Below are positions 4,435 to 22,934 of a stretch of DNA of 28,061 nt, piece by piece (the first letter of the stretch is position 1; every line of letters starts with the position of its first letter). This DNA comes from an uncultured virus (IMG/VR IMGVR_UViG_3300035698_010745) (lineage: Duplodnaviria > Heunggongvirae > Uroviricota > Caudoviricetes): IMG/VR virus record IMGVR_UViG_3300035698_010745; one strand, written 5' to 3'. The notes below the pieces were generated by a model. That model was not told the DNA's origin. It did not search any database and saw only the letters and a list, made by a program, of their open reading frames with translations. Both the position numbers and the translations under genes were made by a program.

Positions 4435-4511
4435 TGCGGGATGGAGCAGCCCGGTAGCTCGGGAGGTTCATAACCTCCAGGTCGTTGGTTCAAATCCAAC
4501 TCCCGCTACCA
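4435..4511 (+). tRNA. tRNA-fMet (CAT), initiator type
   Basis: Cloverleaf; 1:72 mismatch; initiator-like D arm TGGAGCAGCCCGGTAGCTCG; TTCAAAT T-loop; encoded CCA. Confidence 0.9.
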
Positions 4512-4519
4512 AGGAGAAG

Positions 4520-4612
4520 ATGAAAATGTTTGATGCACGGACAAGGACGAGAACGACAGGGCGCACCGGATGGACCGGTACGGCGTCCGGGGTCTGTTCT
4601 GTCCTCGTGTAA
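4520..4612 (+). CDS. attenuator leader peptide MKMFDARTRTRTTGRTGWTGTASGVCSVLV
   Basis: AGGAG RBS at 4512-4516; 15 consecutive Arg/Thr/Gly/Trp codons (4538-4582); followed by alternative hairpins and a terminator. Confidence 0.85.
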   Translation: MKMFDARTRTRTTGRTGWTGTASGVCSVLV

Positions 4613-4634
4613 AACCAAACGACAGAACGTAGAC

Positions 4635-4673
4635 GACCTCGGTTAGCCGAAAGGCCAATCGGGGTTTTTGTTT
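4635..4673 (+). terminator. intrinsic terminator (attenuator 3:4 hairpin)
   Basis: ACCTCGGTTAGCC-GAAA-GGCCAATCGGGGT stem (one mismatch) followed by TTTTGTTT. Confidence 0.85.
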
Positions 4674-4678
4674 GCCCG

Positions 4679-4698
4679 TCATAATTCTTTGATAATCG
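4679..4698 (+). promoter_or_regulatory. TCATAATTCTTTGATAwTCG motif upstream of HNH gene
   Basis: 19/20 identical to 7473-7492 (minus strand) upstream of the other tRNA-array endonuclease. Confidence 0.6.
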
Positions 4699-4741
4699 AA
4701 CCATTAGTGAGTGGTTACATTCACAAGGTGGAGGTTCGATT

Positions 4742-5389
4742 ATGAAAGATGGCAAGATGAGTAGGAGTGAGGCAGGGCGTCTTGGGTGGGAGAAATCCGA
4801 AGAAAAGAATAGGATAAGATATAAGAAGTTTAGGGATGAGTACGAGAAATGCCCAAAGATATGTGGGGATTGTGGAACCCCATTACCGTATGAAAAAAGA
4901 AGGCATCTCTTCTGCAATCATTCTTGTGCGGCAAAGAAAAACAACCAAGGAGTAAGAAGGAATGGGAGACAGCCGGGGAAGTGTTTGTATTGTGGCGAAA
5001 GGCTTCAGTTGTCGAGCAGAAAATTCTGTAACATCCAGTGCCAGAAGGAGCACTCTTACCAGGAATACATCAAAAAATGGTTGAGTGGCAAGGTCACGGG
5101 GCTGACAAATCACGGGCTTTCCATATCAAACCACATCAAGAGATGGCTCGTTGATACGTATGGGCGAGAGTGTTCGGTATGCGGTGGGACGGAATGGATG
5201 GGCGGGACAATGCCTCTTACGGTTGACCATGAGGACGGAAGTTACAAAAATAACAGACCTAAAAATCTTCGACTTGTTTGTGGGAATTGTGGGATGCAGT
5301 TGCCAACATTCGCTGGGAGAAATCGTGGAAATGGAAGACTGGCTAGAAAGCAGTGGGATGACAAATTGGCGGCAGTGATGTCGTCTTAA
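4742..5389 (+). CDS. HNH homing endonuclease with N-terminal zinc fingers
   Basis: CxxC..FCNxxC repeats; C-terminal CSVC...VDHEDG...NNRPKNLRLVCGNC; GGAGG RBS. Confidence 0.85.
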   Translation: MKDGKMSRSEAGRLGWEKSEEKNRIRYKKFRDEYEKCPKICGDCGTPLPYEKRRHLFCNHSCAAKKNNQGVRRNGRQPGKCLYCGERLQLSSRKFCNIQCQKEHSYQEYIKKWLSGKVTGLTNHGLSISNHIKRWLVDTYGRECSVCGGTEWMGGTMPLTVDHEDGSYKNNRPKNLRLVCGNCGMQLPTFAGRNRGNGRLARKQWDDKLAAVMSS

Positions 5390-5397
5390 ATTCAAAT

Positions 5398-5473
5398 GCC
5401 GGTGTAGCTCAGGTGGTAGAGCGCGATACTCGTAATATCGAAGTCACCCGTTCAAATCGGGTCTCCGGCTCCA
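5398..5473 (+). tRNA. tRNA-Thr (CGT)
   Basis: Anticodon arm CGATA-CTCGTAA-TATCG; CCA end. Confidence 0.92.
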
Positions 5474-5488
5474 GGTTGAAAATTGAAT

Positions 5489-5565
5489 AGGTCAGTAGCT
5501 CAATTAGGCAGAGCACCGGTCTCCAAAACCGGGGGTTGGGGGTTCAATTCCCTCCTGGCCTGCCA
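5489..5565 (+). tRNA. tRNA-Trp (CCA)
   Basis: CCGGT-CTCCAAA-ACCGG; G73; CCA end. Confidence 0.93.
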
Positions 5566-5599
5566 GTGACGCTCATTGAAAATAGAATATGAGAACAAT

Positions 5600-5642
5600 G
5601 CCGGGTGCCCAGAGGAAAACTGGGGCAAACCGCCCGGCTCCA
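5600..5642 (+). ncRNA. tRNA-like minihelix (acceptor stem, one hairpin, TCCA end)
   Basis: GCCGGGTG...CGCCCGGC-T-CCA with internal CCCAG/CTGGG hairpin, located between tRNA genes. Confidence 0.5.
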
Positions 5643-5643
5643 T

Positions 5644-5720
5644 GTGCCAGTAGCTCAGTTGGATAGAGCACTTCCCTCCGAAGGAAGGGGCCGCACGTTC
5701 GAACCGTGTCTGGCACACCA
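5644..5720 (+). tRNA. tRNA-Arg (CCG)
   Basis: CTTCC-CTCCGAA-GGAAG; A20; CCA end. Confidence 0.93.
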
Positions 5721-5727
5721 TTAAGAC

Positions 5728-5804
5728 GCCCCCATAGCTCAGTTGGTAGAGCAGCGCACCTGTAATGCGCAGGTCGACGGTTCGAATCCTGTCTGGGGGC
5801 TCCA
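5728..5804 (+). tRNA. tRNA-Thr (TGT), atypical C33
   Basis: GCGCA-CCTGTAA-TGCGC; Thr-type acceptor; CCA end. Confidence 0.85.
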
Positions 5805-5810
5805 CACAAT

Positions 5811-5886
5811 GCGACGGTAGCTCAGTTGGTAGAGCGCCACCTTGCCAAGGTGGGGGTCGAGAGTTCGAACCTCTTCCGTCGCTCCA
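5811..5886 (+). tRNA. tRNA-Gly (GCC)
   Basis: CCACC-TTGCCAA-GGTGG; U73; CCA end. Confidence 0.93.
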
Positions 5887-5888
5887 GT

Positions 5889-5964
5889 GCCGCTATAGCT
5901 CAGCCGGTAGAGCATCGCCTTGGTAAGGCGAAGGTCGTGAGTTCGATTCTCACTGGCGGCTCCA
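5889..5964 (+). tRNA. tRNA-Thr (GGT)
   Basis: TCGCC-TTGGTAA-GGCGA; CCA end. Confidence 0.93.
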
Positions 5965-6003
5965 AGGACGAGGTCAGGAGTTCGAACCTCCTTTCGGGCT
6001 CCA
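5965..6003 (+). pseudogene. 3' half of a tRNA (probably Thr-type)
   Basis: AGGACG-AGGTC-AGGAG-TTCGAAC-CTCCT-TTCGGGC-T-CCA; no 5' half seen. Confidence 0.75.
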
Positions 6004-6007
6004 GTAC

Positions 6008-6082
6008 GCGATGGTAGCTCAGTCAGGTAGAGCGACCTTCCCAAGGTCAATGTCACGAGTTCGATTCTCGTCCGTCGCTCCA
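6008..6082 (+). tRNA. tRNA-Gly (CCC), shortened anticodon stem
   Basis: GACC-TTCCCAA-GGTC directly abutting the D stem; CCA end. Confidence 0.8.
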
Positions 6083-6097
6083 AGTGTATAGTAGGGC

Positions 6098-6358
6098 ATG
6101 GGTACGAATGACGGCATACTGGCGAGGATTGCGTGTACAGCTTGCGGGTTTACGGATTATGTGACAGATGAACAATGGTGTAATGGGGCAGATGGGAAGG
6201 TCGGGCATACAAAGAGTGGTGTGTGGGCCTTCTCGTGGTGGAATGGCACACACACCGGGAACGCTTGTCTTTGTCCCAGGTGCAGGGAGCCGATGCCGGT
6301 CAAGCTGGAACCGGGACATTACGGCTTGGGTGTTACGTGGAATGAAATAGAATTTTAA
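6098..6358 (+). CDS. Cys-rich hypothetical protein within the tRNA array
   Basis: CTAC...CLCPRC; TATAGT-N5-ATG, no SD. Confidence 0.65.
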   Translation: MGTNDGILARIACTACGFTDYVTDEQWCNGADGKVGHTKSGVWAFSWWNGTHTGNACLCPRCREPMPVKLEPGHYGLGVTWNEIEF

Positions 6359-6359
6359 T

Positions 6360-6434
6360 GCGGCATAGGTGTTGTTGGTGGCACACGGGCCTTCCAAGCC
6401 TGTAGGACGAGTTCGAGCCTCGTATGCCGCACCA
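6360..6434 (+). tRNA. tRNA-Gly (TCC)
   Basis: CGGGC-CTTCCAA-GCCTG; A discriminator; CCA end. Confidence 0.88.
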
Positions 6435-6452
6435 GAAGGAAAGGAAGTGGCG

Positions 6453-6653
6453 ATGAATCCATCACATGTGATGTTTACGGACACCGACGGAGATGTCCAC
6501 GTGGCACCTCGTGAAGGCGTGAGGCTTGATAGCGATATCGGTAAAAATAGGTTATTCGTTACTGTTTGTGAGGAGGAAGAGTACGATATTTCCAAAGAGG
6601 AATTTGAAAGGATTACCCCTATCCTTACGGAAGCTCAGTTTATAGGGCCATAG
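6453..6653 (+). CDS. hypothetical protein (66 aa)
   Basis: AAGGA RBS; lies between tRNA genes. Confidence 0.6.
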   Translation: MNPSHVMFTDTDGDVHVAPREGVRLDSDIGKNRLFVTVCEEEEYDISKEEFERITPILTEAQFIGP

Positions 6654-6715
6654 TTCAACGGACAGAACAGAGGATTCCTAATCCTCAAATCTGGGTTCGA
6701 TTCCCAGTGGCCCTA
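6644..6715 (+). tRNA. tRNA-Arg (CCT), no encoded CCA
   Basis: GAGGA-TTCCTAA-TCCTC; 3' end duplicated at 7495-7514, where CCA follows. Confidence 0.88.
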
Positions 6716-6769
6716 GTTGGCGGATTCAGACCACCTCCACGCGGTGTCAATGGTAACAGGTAATGCTGG

Positions 6770-7456
6770 CTAAGAGTCTGATAAACGGGCATCAATGATG
6801 TCCTGAATGATTTTCAGGAACTTCATTGATGATTGTTCTTTGAAGTATTTTTGATGTGATGTGTCAATAGAACACAAACCGATGCCTGCTTCATGGCAGG
6901 CTGCAAACTTGCGCCTGTCGTTGTTTTGAACGGCATCTAGTTTGTCTTGCCCGTGAATTGGCTCGTAGTGGTAGATTCCATTGAGTTCAAAGGCAAGGTG
7001 AAGTGAGGGGATGAAAATATCGAGTTCGGACTGGATAGCATCCTTACGGTTGAAGTGAATTTCAAGGTCTGGATAGAGGGCAGTGAGTTGTTCTTCAAGC
7101 CACTTCTCCAGCTTGGAGCGTCGGGTACCATGCTTCTTGTGGAGATTGTTCCATCGCACGGAGCACGAACGATTGCAGAAATAGTTACCAGATTTTGATT
7201 TCTGGGAAGCGTATCTCCTTACTGGTTTGTTGCATTGCCTACAGGATGTGATTATGGCGGGGTGTTGGTAGAATCTTTCACACCGACTTGAACAGAAGCT
7301 GCCCGTTTCTCTGTTCCGGTTCGGATTTAGAATCATTTGGATTCGATGTTTGGAGATGCGGAATGGTTGCTGGCAGTGTTTGCATTTTAGTGGTAGCTTT
7401 TCACGAGATTTAGCAGCTTTGAATTCTTGGTCTGTATATAGTGGGTGCATGGTCAT
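6770..7456 (-). CDS. zinc-finger plus Vsr/DUF559-like (PD-(D/E)xK) putative homing endonuclease
   Basis: CxxC/FCSxxC repeats; ELDIFIPSLHLAFELNGIYHY; AGGAGG RBS on the minus strand. Confidence 0.8.
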   Translation of the reverse strand: MTMHPLYTDQEFKAAKSREKLPLKCKHCQQPFRISKHRIQMILNPNRNRETGSFCSSRCERFYQHPAIITSCRQCNKPVRRYASQKSKSGNYFCNRSCSVRWNNLHKKHGTRRSKLEKWLEEQLTALYPDLEIHFNRKDAIQSELDIFIPSLHLAFELNGIYHYEPIHGQDKLDAVQNNDRRKFAACHEAGIGLCSIDTSHQKYFKEQSSMKFLKIIQDIIDARLSDS

Positions 7457-7472
7457 CCTCCTACCTATAGAC

Positions 7473-7492
7473 CGAATATCAAAGAATTATGA
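7473..7492 (-). promoter_or_regulatory. TCATAATTCTTTGATAwTCG motif (copy 2)
   Basis: Reverse complement matches 4679-4698 at 19/20. Confidence 0.6.
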
Positions 7493-7733
7493 AATTCGAT
7501 TCCCAGTGGCCCTACCAAGGAAAGGAGGGTGACATGGCAAAAGGAAGATACATTATTGAAGATAGCCTGTACGGTGACGATTACGCATGTCGTAAAATGC
7601 CTGCCGAAAAAGGAAGCGGTTTGTAAGTGTGTGGCCCTGAATAAGAGTCCGGCCTAATGTGGGACTCCCAGTGCCGACGGGCGCGGTCCGACAATTCTTC
7701 CCGAAGGGATGTGTCCGCTGAAGAAAAATTCCC

Positions 7734-7759
7734 CAGAATTGATGCCCCTTTGCGCAATG
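7734..7759 (+). promoter_or_regulatory. CAGAAT-N14-GCAATG motif (copy 5)
   Basis: Exact motif upstream of tRNA-Arg(TCT). Confidence 0.75.
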
Positions 7760-7782
7760 AATGCTTAGGAGGGGCAAGAGAT

Positions 7783-7859
7783 GCCCCGGTAGCTCAGTAG
7801 GATAGAGCATCGGATTTCTAATCCGGCGGCCACAGGTTCGAATCCTGTTCGGGGCACCA
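7783..7859 (+). tRNA. tRNA-Arg (TCT)
   Basis: TCGGA-TTTCTAA-TCCGG; A20; CCA end. Confidence 0.93.
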
Positions 7860-13216: not shown

Positions 13217-13365
13217 AGGAGATTGTTGGTCTTGCGATAGCCATTAGCGGCTATGGCTTCGTTATCTGGATCATTCGGTTTGCCCACAAGGAGCGGATGA
13301 GAATGGTCCATCACATCTTGCAGAATATTCGTTCCCGTGGCCGTAGAATTACTTGTGTGGGATAG
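13210..13365 (+). CDS. small membrane protein (51 aa)
   Basis: AAGGAG RBS; single hydrophobic helix with basic tail. Confidence 0.55.
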   Translation: MVKEIVGLAIAISGYGFVIWIIRFAHKERMRMVHHILQNIRSRGRRITCVG

Positions 13366-13409
13366 CTGGATTTGATAATGTTTTTGTGTCACAAACTAAG
13401 GAGGTCAAA

Positions 13410-15818
13410 ATGAGCGACCGTATTCCGATGATTCCGCCGTTTCGTGTCGTTTCCCGCGTCCAGATTCTCGCGGAAACGAAGGACTATAACCACGAGATGA
13501 TGAATATCCCGGCCATGTGGCGGGAGACTCGTGGGGAAGGCGTCAAGATTGTCATCCTTGATACCGGAGTCCCCAATCACGATGACCTGAAGCCCGTTGG
13601 CGGGAAGTCCTTTATCCCTGGCTACGAAGAGGACCATAATGGTCATGGATGTGTTTCTCCAGATACCCTTGTTCATACTAATTTTTGTGGCATCGAGACT
13701 ATTGAGAGGCTGTACTCTCGGGTGGAGACTCCTGAGCTGACATGGGAGTCCCCGGATGGAAGTACCGGAATGGTCAAAGACGTGAGGAGTATGGGAATAA
13801 AGACCTATGCGCTTGATGAAGATAGCGGCCTCGCCACCATTGCCCCGATTGAGCTTATGCACCGAACAAAAGTGTCAGGGCAAGTGTGCAGTGTCAGCCT
13901 TGAAGGGGGAGAGTCTTACAAGTTGACGCCGTGGCATGAGGTTTGCGTTCTTGTTCACCTTCATCATGACAGGTATGAAGTCAGAAGAAAGCGTGCCGAT
14001 GCATTGAAGGAGGGGGACCGGATGCTGTTTGCGAGTGGCCCGGTTGCGGGGAATCTTGTTTCGGAGCCGTATCGGGTTGAGGGGTCAAAATATCGAGAGT
14101 GTCTGAACTGTGGTCATATTCCGAATAATTTCAAGCCAAGGTCATCAAGGTGCCAATGTAAAAAATGTGGCAAGTTAAGGTGGGTGGAGAAAAGAAGGGT
14201 TCACCTTGTGACCGAAGACTGGGCATACTTGGCTGGTCTTGTCGTAACGGATGGTCATATTTCTATCAAGGGGTATCGTGTAGAGATTACTTCGGAGACT
14301 CCTGAGATTCTTAATGCCGCAATTGAGGCGGCGTCCCGTCTTGGAATAACCGGCAAGATAGATGTTCCGAGGGGAAGGTGTCCCAGAGTCTTATTTGGCT
14401 CTAAGGAAATGGTTGATGTTATGCTCTCGATGGGAATTCAAGCATTTCGGAAAACATACACGCAGACATTGCCGGAATTCGTAGGGAAATCTCCTTTTCC
14501 TGTTGTTTGCTCGTTTGTTGCCGGGACTATTGATGGGGATGGATGTATTTCTCCTAAGAACACCAAGAATCGCATCACGACGGCATCCCCCGACTTCGCT
14601 CGCCAGTTTTCCGCGCTGCTGAACAGCATTGGCGTCTCCAGTGGTGTTCAGAATTACGGGAAAGGTCGTGGCTTTAGTTCCGGCAAGAAACAGAGTGGAT
14701 TTGTGGATGTTCTGAATGTTACCTTTTCAGGAATATTGCCAGAGATAGCCTCTCGTCTGTGCCATCCCGTCAAGAGAGAGAGGGGAAGTCGGGAACTAAA
14801 CCATAGAAGAAAGGCTCGCAGGATTTCGAGTGTAGGGAGGGAGGAGTGGAGCGGAGACTTCTTCGACTTCACCGTGTCTGGACATCATACTTATCTTGGA
14901 AATGGGCATTTTGTCAGCAACACGCATTGCGGAGGCATTATTGCCGCCCTGGCCAACAACAATATGGGTGTCGCCGGGATTGCCCCGGAGTGTGAGGATT
15001 ACTATGGAGCCGTTCTGGATAGGAGTGGTTCCGGGGAAATCTCACAGATTGTTTCCGGTATTCGTTGGGCCGTGGACGTAATCGGAGCCAACGTCATCAG
15101 CATGAGTCTCGGAATCCCGGATGGTTATCCTATCAACCCATCACTCGAAGCCGCCGTAAATTACGCTCGTAGCCAAGGCATAGCCGTCATTTGTGCCGCA
15201 GGCAATGAGGCCGGAGGTGTCGGACAGCCCGCGTGTTACGACAGTGCAATTGCCGTTGCCGCCGTCAACAGCCGTCACGAGAATGCGTCATTCTCCAACA
15301 GGGGGCCGGAAATCGATTTCGCAGCGGGTGGTGTGAATGTCTACTCCACGTACCTGAATAACGGCTATGCCAAGCTGTCAGGGACGAGTATGGCATGCCC
15401 GGCATTGGCTGCCGTGGCGACGCTTATCCTTGCGGACGAGAAGAAGGACCATGACCGGTGGATGTCGCCTGACGAACTCGTTGAGAAGATGAAGCGTATT
15501 GCCTATGACGTTGGCGGGGACGGCTTCGATGAGTTGTACGGACACGGCATCCCCGTATTCCGTGCTGGAGAAGGAGAGCCGGACGAGCCGGAAACCGGCG
15601 AGCCACCACTTCCGCCGGACCCTGACCCAAAGCCCGAGAAGCCTAAGAAGTCCGCCTTCCCGTGTGGCTTGACCTGGAAGGTACTCAAAGCGTTTTCGGA
15701 TGGAGCCGATGTTGCGGCAAGGGGTGGAGCAGACCCGGATGGGGCCATTCTTGCCGGTCTGCAATCCGTCGGGGAGTACGCCGGAAAAGCTACCGAAGTC
15801 AGACAGGATGATGCCTAG
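13410..15818 (+). CDS. S8 subtilisin-like (intracellular-type) serine protease containing an intein
   Basis: ILDTG (Asp), NGHG|THCGG (His), AAGN, GTSMACP (Ser); AAGGAGG RBS; no signal peptide. Confidence 0.92.
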   Translation: MSDRIPMIPPFRVVSRVQILAETKDYNHEMMNIPAMWRETRGEGVKIVILDTGVPNHDDLKPVGGKSFIPGYEEDHNGHGCVSPDTLVHTNFCGIETIERLYSRVETPELTWESPDGSTGMVKDVRSMGIKTYALDEDSGLATIAPIELMHRTKVSGQVCSVSLEGGESYKLTPWHEVCVLVHLHHDRYEVRRKRADALKEGDRMLFASGPVAGNLVSEPYRVEGSKYRECLNCGHIPNNFKPRSSRCQCKKCGKLRWVEKRRVHLVTEDWAYLAGLVVTDGHISIKGYRVEITSETPEILNAAIEAASRLGITGKIDVPRGRCPRVLFGSKEMVDVMLSMGIQAFRKTYTQTLPEFVGKSPFPVVCSFVAGTIDGDGCISPKNTKNRITTASPDFARQFSALLNSIGVSSGVQNYGKGRGFSSGKKQSGFVDVLNVTFSGILPEIASRLCHPVKRERGSRELNHRRKARRISSVGREEWSGDFFDFTVSGHHTYLGNGHFVSNTHCGGIIAALANNNMGVAGIAPECEDYYGAVLDRSGSGEISQIVSGIRWAVDVIGANVISMSLGIPDGYPINPSLEAAVNYARSQGIAVICAAGNEAGGVGQPACYDSAIAVAAVNSRHENASFSNRGPEIDFAAGGVNVYSTYLNNGYAKLSGTSMACPALAAVATLILADEKKDHDRWMSPDELVEKMKRIAYDVGGDGFDELYGHGIPVFRAGEGEPDEPETGEPPLPPDPDPKPEKPKKSAFPCGLTWKVLKAFSDGADVAARGGADPDGAILAGLQSVGEYAGKATEVRQDDA
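13650..14921 (+). mobile_element. intein (424 aa) with LAGLIDADG homing endonuclease
   Basis: Starts CVSPDTLV; block B LTPWH; LAGLVVTDG and FVAGTIDGDG; ends FDFTV..HTYLGNGHFVSN followed by Thr+1. Confidence 0.92.
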
Positions 15819-18322: not shown

Positions 18323-18659
18323 GGCCAGGAAGGCGTTGGATGGGCAGTCGTATGACTTCATGGTGATACGTGACGGCTGCGATGAAGAGGAGGACCTTCT
18401 GACGGACGCGGACATAGCTTTCTTGTGTGCTAACATGAAGGGGGATATCGAAATGACCCCCGAGCACTCAGCCGATGTCCGGCAACGGATGACGGATGCG
18501 GTGCCCATGACGCCAGGGCTGGACGCGAATACATTATTTGACAGGGCGCAACGTGGGGTAAAACTACCAAAAGGGTCCATTGACCCGTATAACGAGGAGA
18601 AAGTTATGGTATTAACAAGTGAACAGATTGCGAAGATTAAAAGTCGAAGCGGTTATTGA
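18291..18659 (+). CDS. hypothetical protein
   Basis: AAGGA RBS. Confidence 0.7.
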   Translation: MLTLTKPQKVEARKALDGQSYDFMVIRDGCDEEEDLLTDADIAFLCANMKGDIEMTPEHSADVRQRMTDAVPMTPGLDANTLFDRAQRGVKLPKGSIDPYNEEKVMVLTSEQIAKIKSRSGY

Positions 18660-18816
18660 CCACTTACAATGGTTTCGCCGAGGGCTCATTGAGAATGGGG
18701 CACCGGCACCGGAGACAATTACCTTCGACCAAATCAAGGCTAGTGCCGGATACAACCATTCACTGGATTCGTTCGTTGCCGGATACACCATGGCGAAAGC
18801 TGACAGCTTAAAGTGA
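18619..18816 (+). CDS. hypothetical protein
   Basis: Fills the gap; GTGA overlap with next gene. Confidence 0.5.
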   Translation: MNRLRRLKVEAVIDHLQWFRRGLIENGAPAPETITFDQIKASAGYNHSLDSFVAGYTMAKADSLK

Positions 18817-19070
18817 ACTTGCAATGGCTCGACCAGTGGGTTGTGTGGAGGCATGGACACATCTATGCCCCGAAGCCCCCAACAAGGCCGTGCAAGTGCC
18901 AATCGGTACGGATATGGGTTGTGTTCTATGCCCGGCAGTTCCTGTGGAGTGTGGACAAGTTTGTAGACGATAGGTATGGGGAACAGCGGAAAGCTGAGTG
19001 GACGGCAAGAATGAATTGCCCGGATGGTGTGATTGCCACTTGGGCCGAGGGGAGAACAAGATGCACGTGA
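18813..19070 (+). CDS. hypothetical protein
   Basis: Operon packing. Confidence 0.5.
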   Translation: MNLQWLDQWVVWRHGHIYAPKPPTRPCKCQSVRIWVVFYARQFLWSVDKFVDDRYGEQRKAEWTARMNCPDGVIATWAEGRTRCT

Positions 19071-19300
19071 TAAGTTCATCGGATGGGCGGAGTTTGCATT
19101 TCCCTATCAAGGAACTGCATAGGAAGTACGAGGAAGACAAGTTTCGGCTCCAAATGAAGTATTATGCTCTTATCCGGGCAAAGCACGGCGTATGGGCAAG
19201 TAACCAGGATAAGTTTGTCAAAAGCCGAGACCAGTTTAACGAACTTGACGGTACGGTAATGGAGGACCTTTTCGAGCATTACGAAATATGTAATCAGTGA
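19061..19300 (+). CDS. hypothetical protein
   Basis: GGAG RBS before MHVISS. Confidence 0.6.
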   Translation: MHVISSSDGRSLHFPIKELHRKYEEDKFRLQMKYYALIRAKHGVWASNQDKFVKSRDQFNELDGTVMEDLFEHYEICNQ

Positions 19301-19309
19301 CCGGCGCAC

Positions 19310-19366
19310 ACCTCGACAGCTCAATAGGGAGCAAGGCAACGGGTTCGAGACCCGTTCGGGGTACCA
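19310..19366 (+). ncRNA. tRNA-like RNA lacking the anticodon arm
   Basis: ACCTCGA/TCGGGGT acceptor + A-CCA; D arm GCTC-AATAGG-GAGC; T arm ACGGG-TTCGAGA-CCCGT; only about 6 nt between D and T arms. Confidence 0.75.
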
Positions 19367-19478
19367 GGAGGGGCGTGTCAGCGGAGACAGGGAACACTCT
19401 GGCACTTGTGAGACATGCGAGTAGGGAGCCGGGTACGTAACCGACCTGAAGGTGTGGGGTAGACCCCAAGCCCCTCCA
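19367..19478 (+). ncRNA. second tRNA-like RNA with enlarged middle domain
   Basis: GGAGGGGC/GCCCCTCC closing stem ending in CCA; internal CAGG/CCTG stem enclosing hairpins; TGGGG/CCCCA T-like hairpin. Confidence 0.5.
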
Positions 19479-19485
19479 TCATTTT

Positions 19486-19511
19486 CAGAATTCAGAGGAC
19501 TTAGTGCAATG
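19486..19511 (+). promoter_or_regulatory. CAGAAT-N14-GCAATG motif (copy 7)
   Basis: Exact motif. Confidence 0.75.
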
Positions 19512-19519
19512 AGGTGACT

Positions 19520-19996
19520 ATGAGTGATAAGCCAAAATATGTAATTCCGAGCCTGGGTGTGACCGGCAAAGAGATATGGGAAGCCTGGAAGGCGTTGCCC
19601 AATCGCCCCCAGGAAGTGATTGAAGCCACGGTTGCGGGTATGGAGCTGATTACCATCAATGCCTATGGCGAGCCGGAGATAGTTCGACATGACAAGGGCG
19701 TAGATGAGCAAGACAACTTTACGGGCTACTTATCCACAGTGCGGGAGCTGACGGTGGAGGAGCATGACGCGCTATACGAGGCAATTGCCCGTGGATGGAT
19801 TACGATTGAGTCCCGTAAGCGGTGGGGCGTTCTGGCCTGCATGGGTTACGCCGACGCCGGGCAGCTTGTGAAGGTACATCATCAGGCGACAGGGCGACCC
19901 TTGGCCGAATGGCTTAAATCGGAGGAGGGCCAGAAATGGACGGTCCGTGAGGCCCGGCGCGACAAAGAACTGGCCGAAAGATACGCATCTGCGTGA
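19520..19996 (+). CDS. hypothetical protein
   Basis: ORF directly after the motif. Confidence 0.75.
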   Translation: MSDKPKYVIPSLGVTGKEIWEAWKALPNRPQEVIEATVAGMELITINAYGEPEIVRHDKGVDEQDNFTGYLSTVRELTVEEHDALYEAIARGWITIESRKRWGVLACMGYADAGQLVKVHHQATGRPLAEWLKSEEGQKWTVREARRDKELAERYASA

Positions 19997-20003
19997 TATT
20001 CCT

Positions 20004-20029
20004 CAGAATCCTGCCGTAGTCGCGCAATG
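20004..20029 (+). promoter_or_regulatory. CAGAAT-N14-GCAATG motif (copy 8)
   Basis: Exact motif upstream of RNase Z. Confidence 0.75.
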
Positions 20030-20048
20030 AATGGGTAGGAGACGAAAT

Positions 20049-20900
20049 ATGAAGGATACGTTGAAAGTTTTGCGCGGCCATTCGTTGGCGATGTACTCGA
20101 CGTGGCTCTATCACGAGCCGACGCGGGTGTTGCTTGATTGCGGCGAAGGTGTCTCCACATCCATGCGGAACCACATTTTCGGTGTGGAGCAGATATTCCT
20201 GACGCATGGTCACTATGACCACATCGGGGGCGTGGCCGGAGTGATTTACTCCAGAGCTGCGGCTCGCGGTGACAAGGAAAAGCCGCTGACGATTCACTAC
20301 CCGAAGGGCTGCCGTCAGGTGGAAGCCTTGCGCCAGTTTGTGACCGGGTCGATTCACCACATCAAGTACGAGTTGAAGTGGGTCGAGGTGGAGCCGGGCG
20401 ACCGGGTCTGTGTTGGTAAGAAGGTGGAAGTGGAAGCCTTCAAGGTGGAGCACACCAGTGGCTTGTGTTTGGGATACAAGCTGGTCGAGAAGCGTCACCG
20501 GTTGCCGAAAGAGTTGGAAGGCCGTCCGTCGGAAGACATCAAAACAATTGCACAGGCCCAGGGCCGTGACGCGGTTCGTGAGTGGTACGACAAGGTTGTG
20601 CTGGCTTACTGCGGCGACAGTGCCCCGGTAAGGGCATCGAGCGTGGCCGGGGCAGAGGTACTCATCCACGAGGCGACCTTCTTGGACGGGAACGACCGTG
20701 TTGGCAAAGGCCACAGCACGGCGCAGGAGGCAATCGAAAACGCGGCTTATGCCGGTGCCGAGTCGTTGATACTATTCCACGTGTCGGGGCGCTATGACCG
20801 CCGAGAGGTGGCACAGCGGATTCGGGACACGGCTCGCCATGTCGGTTGGGAAAAGCCGTTGGCCGTGTTGCTTGGTCACAATCTGATAGAAATTAGATGA
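20049..20900 (+). CDS. rnz: ribonuclease Z (tRNase Z), Thermotoga (TM)-type, metallo-beta-lactamase fold
   Basis: LLDCGEG, FLTHGHYDH, GDS, HEATF, GHS and FHVSGRY motifs; short TM-type arm HRLPKELEG. Confidence 0.88.
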   Translation: MKDTLKVLRGHSLAMYSTWLYHEPTRVLLDCGEGVSTSMRNHIFGVEQIFLTHGHYDHIGGVAGVIYSRAAARGDKEKPLTIHYPKGCRQVEALRQFVTGSIHHIKYELKWVEVEPGDRVCVGKKVEVEAFKVEHTSGLCLGYKLVEKRHRLPKELEGRPSEDIKTIAQAQGRDAVREWYDKVVLAYCGDSAPVRASSVAGAEVLIHEATFLDGNDRVGKGHSTAQEAIENAAYAGAESLILFHVSGRYDRREVAQRIRDTARHVGWEKPLAVLLGHNLIEIR

Positions 20901-21432: not shown

Positions 21433-22114
21433 ATGAAGGATGAAGTCATAGTTGAAATCAGGGCCGCTGAAGGCGGAGCTGATGCGAAACTCTTAGTGCG
21501 CGACCAGCATAGTATTTACTGTGCTTTTGCGAGCCGAGAGCGGCTTTGACCTAGCCCTTCTGGAAGAAAGAGACGGTTACATTTCCTTCTGGGCTCGGGG
21601 TAACGGGGCTCGGAAGCGATTCCTCCCCGAATGCGGTGGCCATAGGTGGCAGCGTGTTCCCCCTACCGAGAAGCGTGGCAGGTATCAAACCTCCACGATA
21701 ACTGTAGCCGTGGTCGGTGAAGTGGGCATCAGTGTGTCCATCCGGCCCGAGGATTTGGAGTGGAGGTTCTGCCGGGGCCGAGGCAAGGGTGGACAGAACC
21801 GAAACAAACTGGATACGGCGGTGCATTTGACGCATAGGCCGACCGGAATCCGGGTGTGGTGCGAAGATGAGCGCAAGCAGTCGCAGAATAAGCGCAAGGC
21901 GCTACAGCGATTGACGGAGGAGGTTGAGAAGCGGAGCCGGGAGCAAGCCGGAGCCAAGCAGAATAAGGAGCGCAGGCAACAGATAGGTTCAGGGATGAGG
22001 GGTGACAAGATTCGCACTATCCGGGTCCGGGATGATACCGTGACGAACCATTTGAACGGTAGAAAAATACGGTATACGGACTATGTGAAGGGCATCTTCA
22101 AAGGGCTACAATGA
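21433..22114 (+). CDS. class I peptide chain release factor-like protein (domain 1 absent), made via +1 programmed frameshift (about 226 aa)
   Basis: Frame 0 (21433-21546) VEIRAAEGGADAKL; CTT-TGA-C at 21544-21550; +1 frame has ECGGHRWQRVPPTE...TST, GKGGQNRNK and R.DKIRT. Confidence 0.88.
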
Positions 22115-22268: not shown

Positions 22269-22934
22269 ATGACAGCGGCAGCAACACTGGCACAGAACAA
22301 CAGGGTTTTGGTGCTAAACAAGAACTGGCAACCGGTCAATGTGATGAGCGTTTTGGGCGCGATTCATAAGGTCTGGAAAGAGCGGGCAAAATTCGTAGAC
22401 CCAGAGACGTACGCTACGTACGATTTCGAAAGTTGGGTGACGAACTGGGATGACGCTATTCGTTATTCGCGAATCGCGGAAGACCGTATTGTGCCTGGTG
22501 CCGGGTTCTCTTTGGTGTTGCCGGAGGTTGTCGTTTGCACCGAGTACGGCGGGTTTCAGTCCTGTGTGTCTCGTCGCAGGCCGAAGTTCAGCCGGACGAA
22601 CATTTACCGGCGGGACAAGAAAACCTGTCAGTATTGTGGCCGCAAGCACAAGATGGCCGACTTGACGATGGAGCACGTGGTTCCGAAGTCTCAGGGTGGC
22701 GAGATGACTTGGGAGAACATTGCGTTGGCTTGCTTTAACTGTAACCAGAAGAAGCGGGACAGGACGCCTCGGCAAGCGGGGATGCGGTTGATTCGTCGGC
22801 CTTTCCGTCCGACGGCCCAGGATATGGCTGTTACGCCGATGGAGCGGTTGCAGCGCAAGATTGGCGGGAATGCGCCCAAGACCTGGGAAGCGTTCCTGGG
22901 CAAGATGTACATGAATGTCGAGCTGAAGGACTAG
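22269..22934 (+). CDS. HNH endonuclease (McrA-like)
   Basis: VLVLN...FSRTNIYRRD..TCQYCG...EHVVPKSQGG..WENIALACFNCN..K; AAGGAGG RBS. Confidence 0.9.
   Translation: MTAAATLAQNNRVLVLNKNWQPVNVMSVLGAIHKVWKERAKFVDPETYATYDFESWVTNWDDAIRYSRIAEDRIVPGAGFSLVLPEVVVCTEYGGFQSCVSRRRPKFSRTNIYRRDKKTCQYCGRKHKMADLTMEHVVPKSQGGEMTWENIALACFNCNQKKRDRTPRQAGMRLIRRPFRPTAQDMAVTPMERLQRKIGGNAPKTWEAFLGKMYMNVELKD

What the first reader, a model, noticed from the sequence alone, without database searches (positions are those of the whole stretch)
19310..19366. 57-nt tRNA with intact acceptor, D and T arms and CCA but no anticodon arm
Seen: all three remaining stems pair fully and CCA is encoded, which looks like clean loss of one arm rather than decay. 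The 3' end resembles tRNA-Arg(TCT) at 7783. Inference: possibly a decoy for CCA-end-modifying toxins, a processing signal releasing the adjacent RNA, or an aminoacyl donor.
Basis: partly seen in the sequence, partly recalled or inferred. Interest (0 to 1): 0.72.

Follow-up and report, generated by a model that had tools for sequence, protein, structure and literature searches.

The report
Anticodon-less tRNA look-alike in phage operon
A salt-lake phage carries a 57-base RNA module shaped like a tRNA with the codon-reading arm missing; it most likely marks where tRNA-trimming enzymes, including the phage's own RNase Z, cut a long message, and similar modules occur in many other phages.

Summary
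Bases 19310-19366 (+) fold into a 7-bp acceptor stem, a 4-bp D stem, a 5-bp T stem with a TTCGAGA loop, then A-CCA. Exactly tRNA positions 27-43 are absent. ARAGORN and Rfam do not call it. It cannot decode.

No relative of this locus could be fetched, so neither its age nor its conservation is known.

It is not a one-off. Two narrow pattern scans found armless tRNA look-alikes in other phages and prophages. In one scan 33 of 42 distinct sequences, not selected for pairing, had a perfect 7-bp acceptor stem.

The module lies 9 nt after one ORF. It directly abuts a 112-nt stem-closed RNA, and it sits 665 nt upstream of a phage RNase Z. That enzyme is closest to the Thermotoga type, which cuts right after an encoded CCA.

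Best reading (about 0.45): a cis processing signal like plant-mitochondrial t-elements, cut by RNase P and the phage RNase Z. Rivals: a released tRNA decoy (0.2), and a recent deletion relic (0.25).

Earlier notes of this scan describe similar elements on other DNA. No expression or cleavage data exist.

The parts
19310..19366 (+). 57-nt anticodon-armless tRNA look-alike. Acceptor 19310-16 with 19356-62; D arm 19319-32 (4 bp, 6-nt loop ending GG); linker 19333-38; T arm 19339-55 (loop TTCGAGA); discriminator A 19363; CCA 19364-66.
19367..19478 (+). 112-nt RNA module starting directly after the CCA, closed by an 8-bp stem GGAGGGGC/GCCCCTCC. No family match and no look-alike among the fetched loci. 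Contains AGGAGG plus a 21-codon GTG frame (19375-19440).
   Evidence: (z -1.95; 6 of 200 shuffles as stable)
18998..19300 (+). Upstream ORF of 100 aa with no family. Its stop lies 9 nt before the element.
19520..19996 (+). Downstream ORF of 158 aa (RBS GAGG, ATG 19520). An ORFan.
20031..20900 (+). RNase Z homologue of the Thermotoga maritima type (HxHxDH motif THGHYDH). Proposed enzyme for the cut after A19366.
21433..22114 (+). Context only: an RF1-like release factor lacking domain 1, read through a CTT TGA C +1 frameshift site. Same gene block.

Best explanation
The element is a non-decoding tRNA mimic that keeps only what tRNA end-processing enzymes read: the 12-bp acceptor/T-arm stack, the D/T-loop elbow and ACCA. 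It is transcribed inside a rightward polycistronic message. Host RNase P cuts at its 5' end (before A19310). The phage's own Thermotoga-type RNase Z cuts right after the encoded CCA (after A19366). These cuts separate the upstream message from the block ORF158 - RNase Z - RF1. They also give that block a 5' end (G19367) buried in an 8-bp stem, which should slow 5'-end-dependent decay. The freed 57-mer may be a by-product or may act on its own. Shown here: the structure, its position, the kind of RNase Z, and the recurrence of armless look-alikes in phages. Inferred: transcription, both cuts, and the stabilising effect.
For: The structure is exact and not chance.

It sits between co-oriented ORFs, 9 nt after a stop codon. 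It is separated by 0 nt from a stem-closed 112-nt module that precedes the RBS of the next ORF. No sigma-70-like promoter or terminator was found on the + strand in 18500-20200.

The gene at 20031-20900 matches T. maritima tRNase Z chains 1ww1/2e7y at E 9.5e-58 over residues 15-258. E. coli RNase Z scores 6e-20 and B. subtilis 1e-14. Its best NCBIfam model is RNase_Z_T_toga, 1.5e-58. That enzyme cuts CCA-containing precursors right after A76 (PMC1540738, abstract and introduction). Ten of the window's 11 tRNA genes encode CCA.

True tRNAs of this phage already sit between ORFs on the same strand.

Plant-mitochondrial t-elements are a precedent. They are tRNA-like and carry the T-arm motif. The A. 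thaliana nad6 element lacks the anticodon arm. Their ends coincide with mapped mRNA ends made by RNase P and RNase Z (PMC1920247 abstract and section 35; PMC5499578 passage).

Other armless look-alikes lie between co-oriented genes. L261 has two copies flanking a 48-aa ORF. In L237 the element lies 40 nt after one ORF and 39 nt before a CsrA gene. In L343 it lies 64 nt before a small-terminase gene.
Against: There is no RNA evidence: none of the 10 listed sequencing runs is on record as RNA.

No relative of this locus was found, so conservation and covariation here are unknown.

The 112-nt fold is only modestly better than shuffles, z -1.95.

The RNase Z match is below NCBI's curated cut-off (198 against 507 bits), and its cut site is inferred from the Thermotoga enzyme.

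In the five genomes or records searched whole, armless-length matches are one or two per genome, so this is not systematic punctuation.

A recent deletion in a tRNA that once sat here would look the same and would still be processed.
Confidence: 0.45

Rival explanations
1. The released 57-mer is the product. It would be a stable, CCA-ended tRNA decoy that occupies a factor reading the acceptor end or the elbow, such as a host anti-phage toxin acting on tRNA 3' ends, a tRNA nuclease or a modification enzyme. It could not enter decoding.
For: It keeps the CCA, the elbow bases (G18 G19; T-loop TTCGA) and an unbroken 12-bp stack. Armless look-alikes recur as single genes in (pro)phages that carry few or no tRNA genes: 5 of 5 proviruses searched had one, and 3 of those 5 had no other match. 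This suggests a dedicated RNA and not array decay.
Against: No target is known and no defence or toxin gene was seen beside it among the ORFs scanned. In the larger class, CCA is encoded in only about 2 of 42 distinct sequences, so a CCA-directed role is not a class feature. This reading is compatible with the processing reading and not exclusive of it.
Confidence: 0.2
2. It is a dead tRNA gene. A tRNA once sat between these ORFs and lost its anticodon hairpin by a replication slip across the inverted repeat. The rest is intact only because the event is recent.
For: This genome does hold tRNA debris. Bases 5965-6003 are a T arm plus a 3' acceptor strand plus TCCA with no 5' partner. The element is most like the phage's own tRNA-Arg(TCT), 40 of 57. 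Four runs show one identical sequence, so nothing speaks to its age.
Against: It differs from a standard tRNA in three separate core features (C8 in place of U8, a 6-nt D loop without A21, no arm), yet 0 of 16 stem pairs is broken. Two pairs differ from tRNA-Arg(TCT) on both sides. The same clean architecture recurs with unrelated acceptor sequences in many phages: 33 of 42 distinct sequences have 7 of 7 pairs. It lies 11.4 kb from the tRNA cluster, in the largest non-tRNA gap I see among the + strand ORF junctions from 15.7 to 28 kb (my reading).
Confidence: 0.25
3. It is one domain of a larger, roughly 170-nt RNA (19310-19478) that acts as a regulatory leader or small RNA for the ORF158 - RNase Z - RF1 block. 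One possibility is feedback in which RNase Z cuts its own operon leader.
For: The two modules abut without a spacer and fold independently in the 201-nt fold. The RNase Z gene is in the same block. In the L019 group of viral and metagenome contigs, an armless look-alike and about 60 nt downstream form one conserved island.
Against: No Rfam family matches at E up to 10. The second module has no look-alike in any fetched locus or elsewhere in the window. An ORFan gene lies between the leader and RNase Z.
Confidence: 0.07
4. It is charged with an amino acid and used outside decoding, as an aminoacyl donor or a tmRNA-like rescue partner of the nearby truncated release factor.
For: It has an encoded ACCA and an intact acceptor/T stack. 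A release-factor gene lacking domain 1 lies 2 kb downstream.
Against: It has none of the anticodon-independent identity sets that I recall: pair 3-70 is C-G and not G-U, base -1 is C and not G, and the variable region is 5 nt. ARAGORN finds no tmRNA. ORF158 gave no SmpB-like or other signal: no Pfam SmpB match, AlphaFold2 pLDDT 40.6.
Confidence: 0.03

Closest known systems
Plant-mitochondrial t-elements (Forner et al. 2007, PMC1920247; described in PMC5499578)
   Same: Degenerate tRNA shape with an acceptor/T-arm mimic and T-loop motif. The A. thaliana nad6 element lacks the anticodon arm. They sit at mRNA borders and are cut by RNase P and RNase Z, so they define mRNA ends.
   Different: Organelle versus phage. 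The t-element ends are mapped experimentally, and here nothing is. This element encodes CCA and is paired with a virus-encoded, Thermotoga-type RNase Z. Its T loop matches 10 of the 11 positions of GGTTCRANYCC (A where Y is expected).
t-element cassettes used in Haloferax to release crRNAs (PMC6546412, passages)
   Same: A tRNA-like module directly abuts another RNA, so that RNase P and RNase Z cuts give that RNA exact ends. This is the arrangement proposed for 19366|19367.
   Different: That system is engineered. From memory, a natural haloarchaeal case lies upstream of 5S rRNA (not checked in the library).
Canonical tRNA (Rfam RF00005)
   Same: Acceptor, D and T arms; G18 G19; T-loop TTCGA; discriminator plus CCA. 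70% identical to the phage's tRNA-Arg(TCT).
   Different: No anticodon arm, C8, a 6-nt D loop. No Rfam or ARAGORN call.
tmRNA tRNA-like domain
   Same: A tRNA top half without an anticodon arm.
   Different: In tmRNA the two acceptor strands are separated by the mRNA-like part, the D arm is degenerate and G3:U70 is required. None of this holds here, and ARAGORN finds no tmRNA.
YrlA / bacterial Y RNA tRNA-like domain (Rfam RF02553)
   Same: A close tRNA mimic that cannot decode.
   Different: From memory, YrlA is circularly permuted, with a closed acceptor, no free CCA and a stem in place of the anticodon stem. There is no Rfam match here.
Phage T4 rnaC/rnaD and T5 stable tRNA-like RNAs; MALAT1 mascRNA
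   Same: Small non-decoding RNAs with tRNA-like ends, processed by tRNA enzymes. mascRNA is cut off a longer RNA by RNase P and RNase Z.
   Different: Different sizes and folds. No sequence comparison was made here.

Membership tests
Canonical tRNA (RF00005) | Anticodon arm carrying an anticodon | tested here: not met
   Positions 27-43 are absent. The only 'tRNA' that ARAGORN offered (intron mode, lowered threshold, 19242-19366) has poor stems and overlaps the upstream ORF.
Canonical tRNA (RF00005) | Score at or above the Rfam gathering score (29 bits), or an ARAGORN call | tested here: not met
   No match even at E up to 10. ARAGORN default gives none.
Canonical tRNA (RF00005) | Acceptor, D and T arms with elbow bases G18 G19 and T54 T55 C56 | tested here: met
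   The D loop is only 6 nt, and position 8 is C.
t-element-like processing signal | tRNA-like acceptor/T-arm mimic with T-loop motif GGTTCRANYCC, non-decoding | tested here: met
   GGTTCGAGACC matches 10 of 11 positions. The architecture matches the description in PMC5499578.
t-element-like processing signal | Lies at the border of mRNAs within a transcription unit | tested here: met
   9 nt after the stop of ORF 18998-19300, same strand as all neighbours, no + strand promoter or terminator match nearby. The transcription unit itself is inferred.
t-element-like processing signal | Element ends coincide with mapped transcript ends; cut by RNase P and RNase Z | not testable with these tools
   No RNA run holds the stretch.
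Armless tRNA look-alikes of phages (class defined here) | 7-bp acceptor, D arm, short linker of 1 plus 2-8 nt, T arm, no anticodon arm | tested here: met
   A model built without the window (R2, 15 sequences) scores it at 55.9 bits, against 20.6 or less for the window's true tRNAs. Caveat: the members were found with a pattern taken from this element, so the test is partly circular.
Armless tRNA look-alikes of phages (class defined here) | Common descent with the other members | tested here: inconclusive
   Only the architecture and the generic tRNA motifs are shared. The acceptor sequences are unrelated.
tmRNA | G3:U70, a tag reading frame, split acceptor strands | tested here: not met
   Pair 3-70 is C-G. 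No tmRNA by ARAGORN, also at a lowered threshold.
YrlA (RF02553) | Match to the covariance model; permuted order | tested here: not met
   No Rfam match. The order of arms is the ordinary one.
Thermotoga-type RNase Z (for gene 20031-20900) | Closest to T. maritima tRNase Z; HxHxDH metal motif | tested here: met
   1ww1/2e7y at E 9.5e-58 against 6e-20 for E. coli. THGHYDH is present. TIGR02650 is the best family but scores below its cut-off.
Thermotoga-type RNase Z (for gene 20031-20900) | Cuts after A76 of CCA-containing precursors | not testable with these tools
   This property is taken from PMC1540738. It is inferred for the phage enzyme.

The most novel reading that the evidence does not exclude
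Armless, elbow-and-acceptor-only tRNA mimics are a widespread, dedicated phage RNA class. This phage makes its copy with a ready CCA end using its own RNase Z. The freed 57-mer would act in trans as a decoy or competitor for a host factor that reads tRNA 3' ends or elbows (a defence toxin, a nuclease or a quality-control enzyme), and would not be mere punctuation.
Probability: 0.2. Interest if true: 0.8.

Novelty: new variant of a known kind. Interest (0 to 1): 0.5.

Why it matters
If the reading holds, a phage uses the organelle-style trick of a stripped-down tRNA as an RNA cutting mark, and it brings its own after-CCA RNase Z to serve it. That would make phage mRNA and tRNA maturation partly independent of the host.

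The wider result may matter more. Clean anticodon-armless tRNA look-alikes are common in (pro)phages and often stand next to terminase genes. The canonical-D-arm ones score as 'tRNA' in Rfam (20 of 20 tested), so pipelines built on that model may label them as odd or pseudo tRNAs. I found no paper that treats them as a class.

They are easy to test: cleavage assays, end mapping and deletion in a cultured prophage.

Tried and rejected
Relatives of the locus:
- Megablast of 18800-19900 against the phage collection gave no match.
- Sensitive blastn of 19290-19520 gave 6 records, each covering 19% of the query or less (H2-H5 annotated tRNA-Glu; H1 and H6 unannotated).
- IMG/VR scans with ORF158, the 100-aa ORF, RNase Z and the helicase gave 4 weak 30-residue matches and otherwise nothing.
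- ORF158 has no homologue but itself among 5.8 billion proteins.
- RNase Z relatives exist (P0005 at 76% identity; P0006-P0018 at 53-67%), but their DNA was out of reach. An alignment-based IMG/VR scan gave one true relative (L273, 36% identity) with no tRNA or mimic nearby.
- No whole genome is held for the window.

Expression and variation:
- No RNA holder is listed among the 10 runs.
- Contigs of 4 runs (10 pieces) are identical to the window, so there is no natural variation to read.

Rejected readings:
- ARAGORN with introns at a lowered threshold proposed a 125-nt tRNA-Arg(tcg) at 19242-19366. I rejected it as spurious.
- Overlapping ORFs (211 and 77 aa on the minus strand, 47 aa on the plus strand) have no significant family match; the best is E 0.028.
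- Structure of ORF158: AlphaFold2 pLDDT 40.6 and Atlas pTM 0.32, too poor for a fold search.
- The second module has no look-alike in the fetched loci or the rest of the window.

An inference I withdrew: searches found 96 normally spaced matches, only 1 of which had G before AGC, and none had the spacing expected for a 6-nt D loop. From this I inferred that a short D loop is specific to armless elements. One search then found 51 armless elements with a standard 8-nt D loop, so the short loop is not a class feature.

Chance matches: most of the 125 matches to the first pattern are chance hits in GC-rich coding DNA. Only 14 have 7 of 7 acceptor pairs, against 0 in an offset control. L087 and L259 lie inside long ORFs and are probably chance; L087 was nevertheless used in model R1.

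Literature: the searches found no paper on anticodon-armless tRNA-like RNAs of phages. Subscription journals and bioRxiv supplements were not searchable.

Full report
WHAT IS THERE

Bases 19310-19366 on the + strand read ACCTCGA CA GCTC AATAGG GAGC A AGGCA ACGGG TTCGAGA CCCGT TCGGGGT A CCA. That gives:
- a 7-bp acceptor stem (one U-G pair);
- a 2-nt spacer;
- a 4-bp D stem with a 6-nt loop ending in GG;
- one base corresponding to position 26;
- a 5-nt variable region;
- a 5-bp T stem with the T loop TTCGAGA;
- the 3' acceptor strand, discriminator A and an encoded CCA.

When aligned with the window's 11 tRNAs, the gap is the whole anticodon arm (positions 27-43) plus three D-loop bases. The minimum-energy and centroid folds are exactly this shape: -22.1 kcal/mol, z -2.9, 0 of 200 shuffles as stable. 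A scan of both strands of the window for this fixed geometry finds 16 of 16 pairs only at 19310. With the T-loop, GG and CCA requirements, about 2e-8 such sites are expected by chance.

ARAGORN lists 11 tRNAs (4435-7859) and not this one. Rfam gives 11 tRNA matches and nothing in 19150-19650, even at E up to 10. The RNA cannot decode.

The likeness to tRNA-Arg(TCT) is 40 of 57, the best of 11. Unrelated tRNAs of this window reach 79%, median 56%, so direct descent is not shown. Relative to that tRNA, two stem pairs differ on both sides (1-72 G-C to A-U; 51-63 A-U to G-C). Two more differ on one side and still pair. No pair is broken.

SURROUNDINGS

All credible genes run rightward. The element starts 9 nt after the stop of a 100-aa ORF (18998-19300). 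Directly after the CCA, with no spacer, comes a 112-nt stretch (19367-19478) closed by the 8-bp stem GGAGGGGC/GCCCCTCC. Then come 41 nt with an RBS, and the ATG of a 158-aa ORFan at 19520. The fold of the second module is only modestly better than shuffles (z -1.95; 6 of 200 as stable). It has no Rfam match and no look-alike in any fetched locus.

The next gene (20031-20900) is an RNase Z. It matches the T. maritima tRNase Z structures 1ww1/2e7y at E 9.5e-58 over residues 15-258. E. coli scores 6e-20 and B. subtilis 1e-14. Its best NCBIfam model is RNase_Z_T_toga (1.5e-58, 198 bits), which is below the curated 507 bits. According to PMC1540738 (abstract and introduction read), that enzyme, unlike other RNase Z, cuts CCA-containing precursors precisely after A76. 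This fits the phage, since 10 of its 11 tRNA genes encode CCA.

Further downstream lies an RF1-like gene. The window comes from an uncultured virus seen in salt-lake metagenomes: 10 runs from 10 studies, none on record as RNA. Contigs from four of those runs are identical to the window over this stretch.

IS IT A ONE-OFF?

No relative of this locus could be fetched. The design does recur, as the following scans show.

First pattern. I took a pattern from the element: its D arm, a gap of 3-12 nt, then the T loop.
- Of the 125 matches examined (the window's own included), 14 had 7 of 7 acceptor pairs and 17 had 6 of 7. An offset control gave 0 and 12.
- So a minority are real and most are chance hits in GC-rich coding DNA.
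- A variant of the pattern, with G fixed before the AGC of the D arm, hit 46 loci in cellular genome bins. Real examples there include L261, L246 and L237.
- A model built without the window (R2, 15 sequences) scores the element at 55.9 bits and the window's true tRNAs at 20.6 or less. This is partly circular, because the members were found with the element's own motif and chosen for pairing.

Second, less biased test. I used a pattern with the standard 8-nt-loop D arm and the same short gap.
- It hit 51 IMG/VR loci with 42 distinct sequences.
- Of these, 33 have a perfect 7-bp acceptor stem in the fixed register, although pairing was not part of the search. Four have 6 of 7 pairs and five have 5 or fewer.
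- All 20 loci that I passed to Rfam score 40-54 bits on the tRNA model, with the anticodon arm shown as a deletion of 15-17 model positions.
- The gap is 10-12 nt in all of them, at the upper edge of the allowed range, so the class may extend further.

Context of class members.
- Five of these loci lie in nearly complete proviruses. Each provirus holds one armless element. Three have no other match to the model, and two have one further, tRNA-length match.
- In L343 the element is 64 nt upstream of a small-terminase gene. In L339 it is 248 nt downstream of the large terminase. In the L032 group it lies upstream of a small terminase.
- The other two of the five (L340, L342) showed no terminase among the neighbouring ORFs scanned, and L341 lies near an integrase-like gene.

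An earlier inference of mine, that the 6-nt D loop is specific to armless elements, was overturned and is withdrawn.

HOW IT MOST LIKELY WORKS

The element retains just what RNase P, RNase Z and the CCA enzyme read: the acceptor/T stack, the elbow and the 3' end. This is established knowledge, recalled. It stands between cistrons and touches another structured RNA.

I therefore favour a cis processing signal. RNase P would cut before A19310, and the phage's Thermotoga-type RNase Z would cut after A19366. These cuts would free the upstream mRNA and leave the ORF158 - RNase Z - RF1 message with a 5' end locked in a stem.

The closest precedent is the plant-mitochondrial t-element:
- It is tRNA-like with the T-arm motif.
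- Its ends coincide with mapped mRNA ends and are attributed to RNase P and RNase Z (PMC1920247 abstract and section 35).
- PMC5499578 (passage) states that the A. thaliana nad6 t-element lacks the anticodon arm.
- In Haloferax, engineered t-element cassettes release crRNAs with exact ends (PMC6546412 passages).

Everything about transcription and cutting here is inference.

RIVALS

1. A trans-acting decoy (0.2). The class occurs as single dedicated genes, which fits a product RNA, but no target is known, and CCA is encoded in only about 2 of 42 class members.
2. A recent deletion relic (0.25). The genome does hold tRNA debris at 5965-6003, and age cannot be judged without relatives. Against it: three separate core departures from a tRNA with no broken pair, and the recurrence of the design.
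3. One domain of a larger leader RNA (0.07).
4. A charged RNA (0.03). It has no anticodon-independent identity set that I recall, and no tmRNA features.

Chance is excluded.

KNOWN OR NEW

It is not a tRNA, tmRNA or YrlA by their defining features (see the membership table). It works most like a t-element. For phages I found no paper describing anticodon-armless tRNA look-alikes as a class (the library lacks most subscription journals).

Earlier notes of this scan report similar armless or top-half tRNA mimics on other DNA and name t-elements as the closest known kind. They are unchecked AI notes. I verified only the papers they pointed to.

I rate this a new variant of a known kind. The specific addition here is the pairing with a phage-encoded after-CCA RNase Z.

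LIMITS

There is no RNA data, no homologous locus and no experiment. The class census rests on two narrow patterns and capped scans. Model R1 includes one probable chance member (L087).

Noticed in passing
window 21433-22114 (frameshift site 21544-21550): Release-factor gene with a prfB-style +1 frameshift heptamer CTT TGA C. Reading CTTT as one step gives a 226-aa product that matches RF1 contiguously (profile positions 104-316 of 347, E 9e-55). It has a PPT motif in the PxT place and lacks RF domain 1. An RF1-like protein gated by a UGA frameshift is unusual.
   Followed up: partly
window 20031-20900: Phage-encoded RNase Z of the Thermotoga type (1ww1/2e7y at E 9.5e-58). 161 homologues at E of 1e-20 or better in metagenomes, the best at 76% identity. 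The few named ones are labelled as MAGs: Planctomycetota-type names in 4 rows, Armatimonadetes in 1, 'bacterium' in 1.
   Followed up: partly
window 5600-5642: 43-nt hairpin (8 + 5 bp with a 3'-side bulge) ending in U-CCA, 1 nt before tRNA-Arg(CCG) and just after a TTGAAAATAGAATA motif. It looks like a minihelix-type mimic of the tRNA top half. Fold z -2.15 (5 of 200 shuffles as stable).
   Followed up: partly
window 5965-6003: tRNA remnant between tRNA-Thr(GGT) and tRNA-Gly(CCC): variable region, T arm (AGGAG TTCGAAC CTCCT), 3' acceptor strand, T-CCA, with no 5' acceptor partner.
   Followed up: partly
window 5476-5489 and 5576-5589: Repeated motif TTGAAAAT(T/A)GAATA in two spacers of the tRNA cluster. 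Two exact matches against 0.5 expected; 8 of 100 shuffles reach 2. Possibly a phage promoter.
   Followed up: no
window 13353-15818: Subtilase (Peptidase_S8) gene interrupted by an intein with a LAGLIDADG homing endonuclease. Two HNH endonuclease genes at 4742-5389 and 22269-22934.
   Followed up: no
window 19366-19440: AGGAGG directly after the CCA, followed by a GTG-started 21-codon frame (19375-19440) inside the 112-nt module. Either a possible leader peptide or chance.
   Followed up: no
L288-L338 (IMG/VR); L339-L343: A class of 58-59-nt tRNA look-alikes with a standard D arm and no anticodon arm, in proviruses of about 35-48 kb. 33 of 42 distinct sequences have perfect acceptor stems. All 20 tested score as tRNA in Rfam (40-54 bits). 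Two of five examined lie beside terminase genes. One (L309) abuts the 3' end of a weak, sub-threshold GOLLD RNA match (33.8 bits against a gathering score of 150).
   Followed up: partly
L019, L020, L009, L032, L043, L050, L062, L007: Armless look-alike plus about 60 nt downstream form a conserved island in otherwise diverged non-coding DNA, preceded by a hairpin with a T run and lying upstream of a small-terminase gene (L032). No Rfam family matches.
   Followed up: partly
L261 937-989 and 1192-1236: Two near-identical armless look-alikes 255 nt apart flank a 48-aa ORF on a contig of an archaeal genome bin. The first is followed after 14 nt by GGAGG and an ATG.
   Followed up: no
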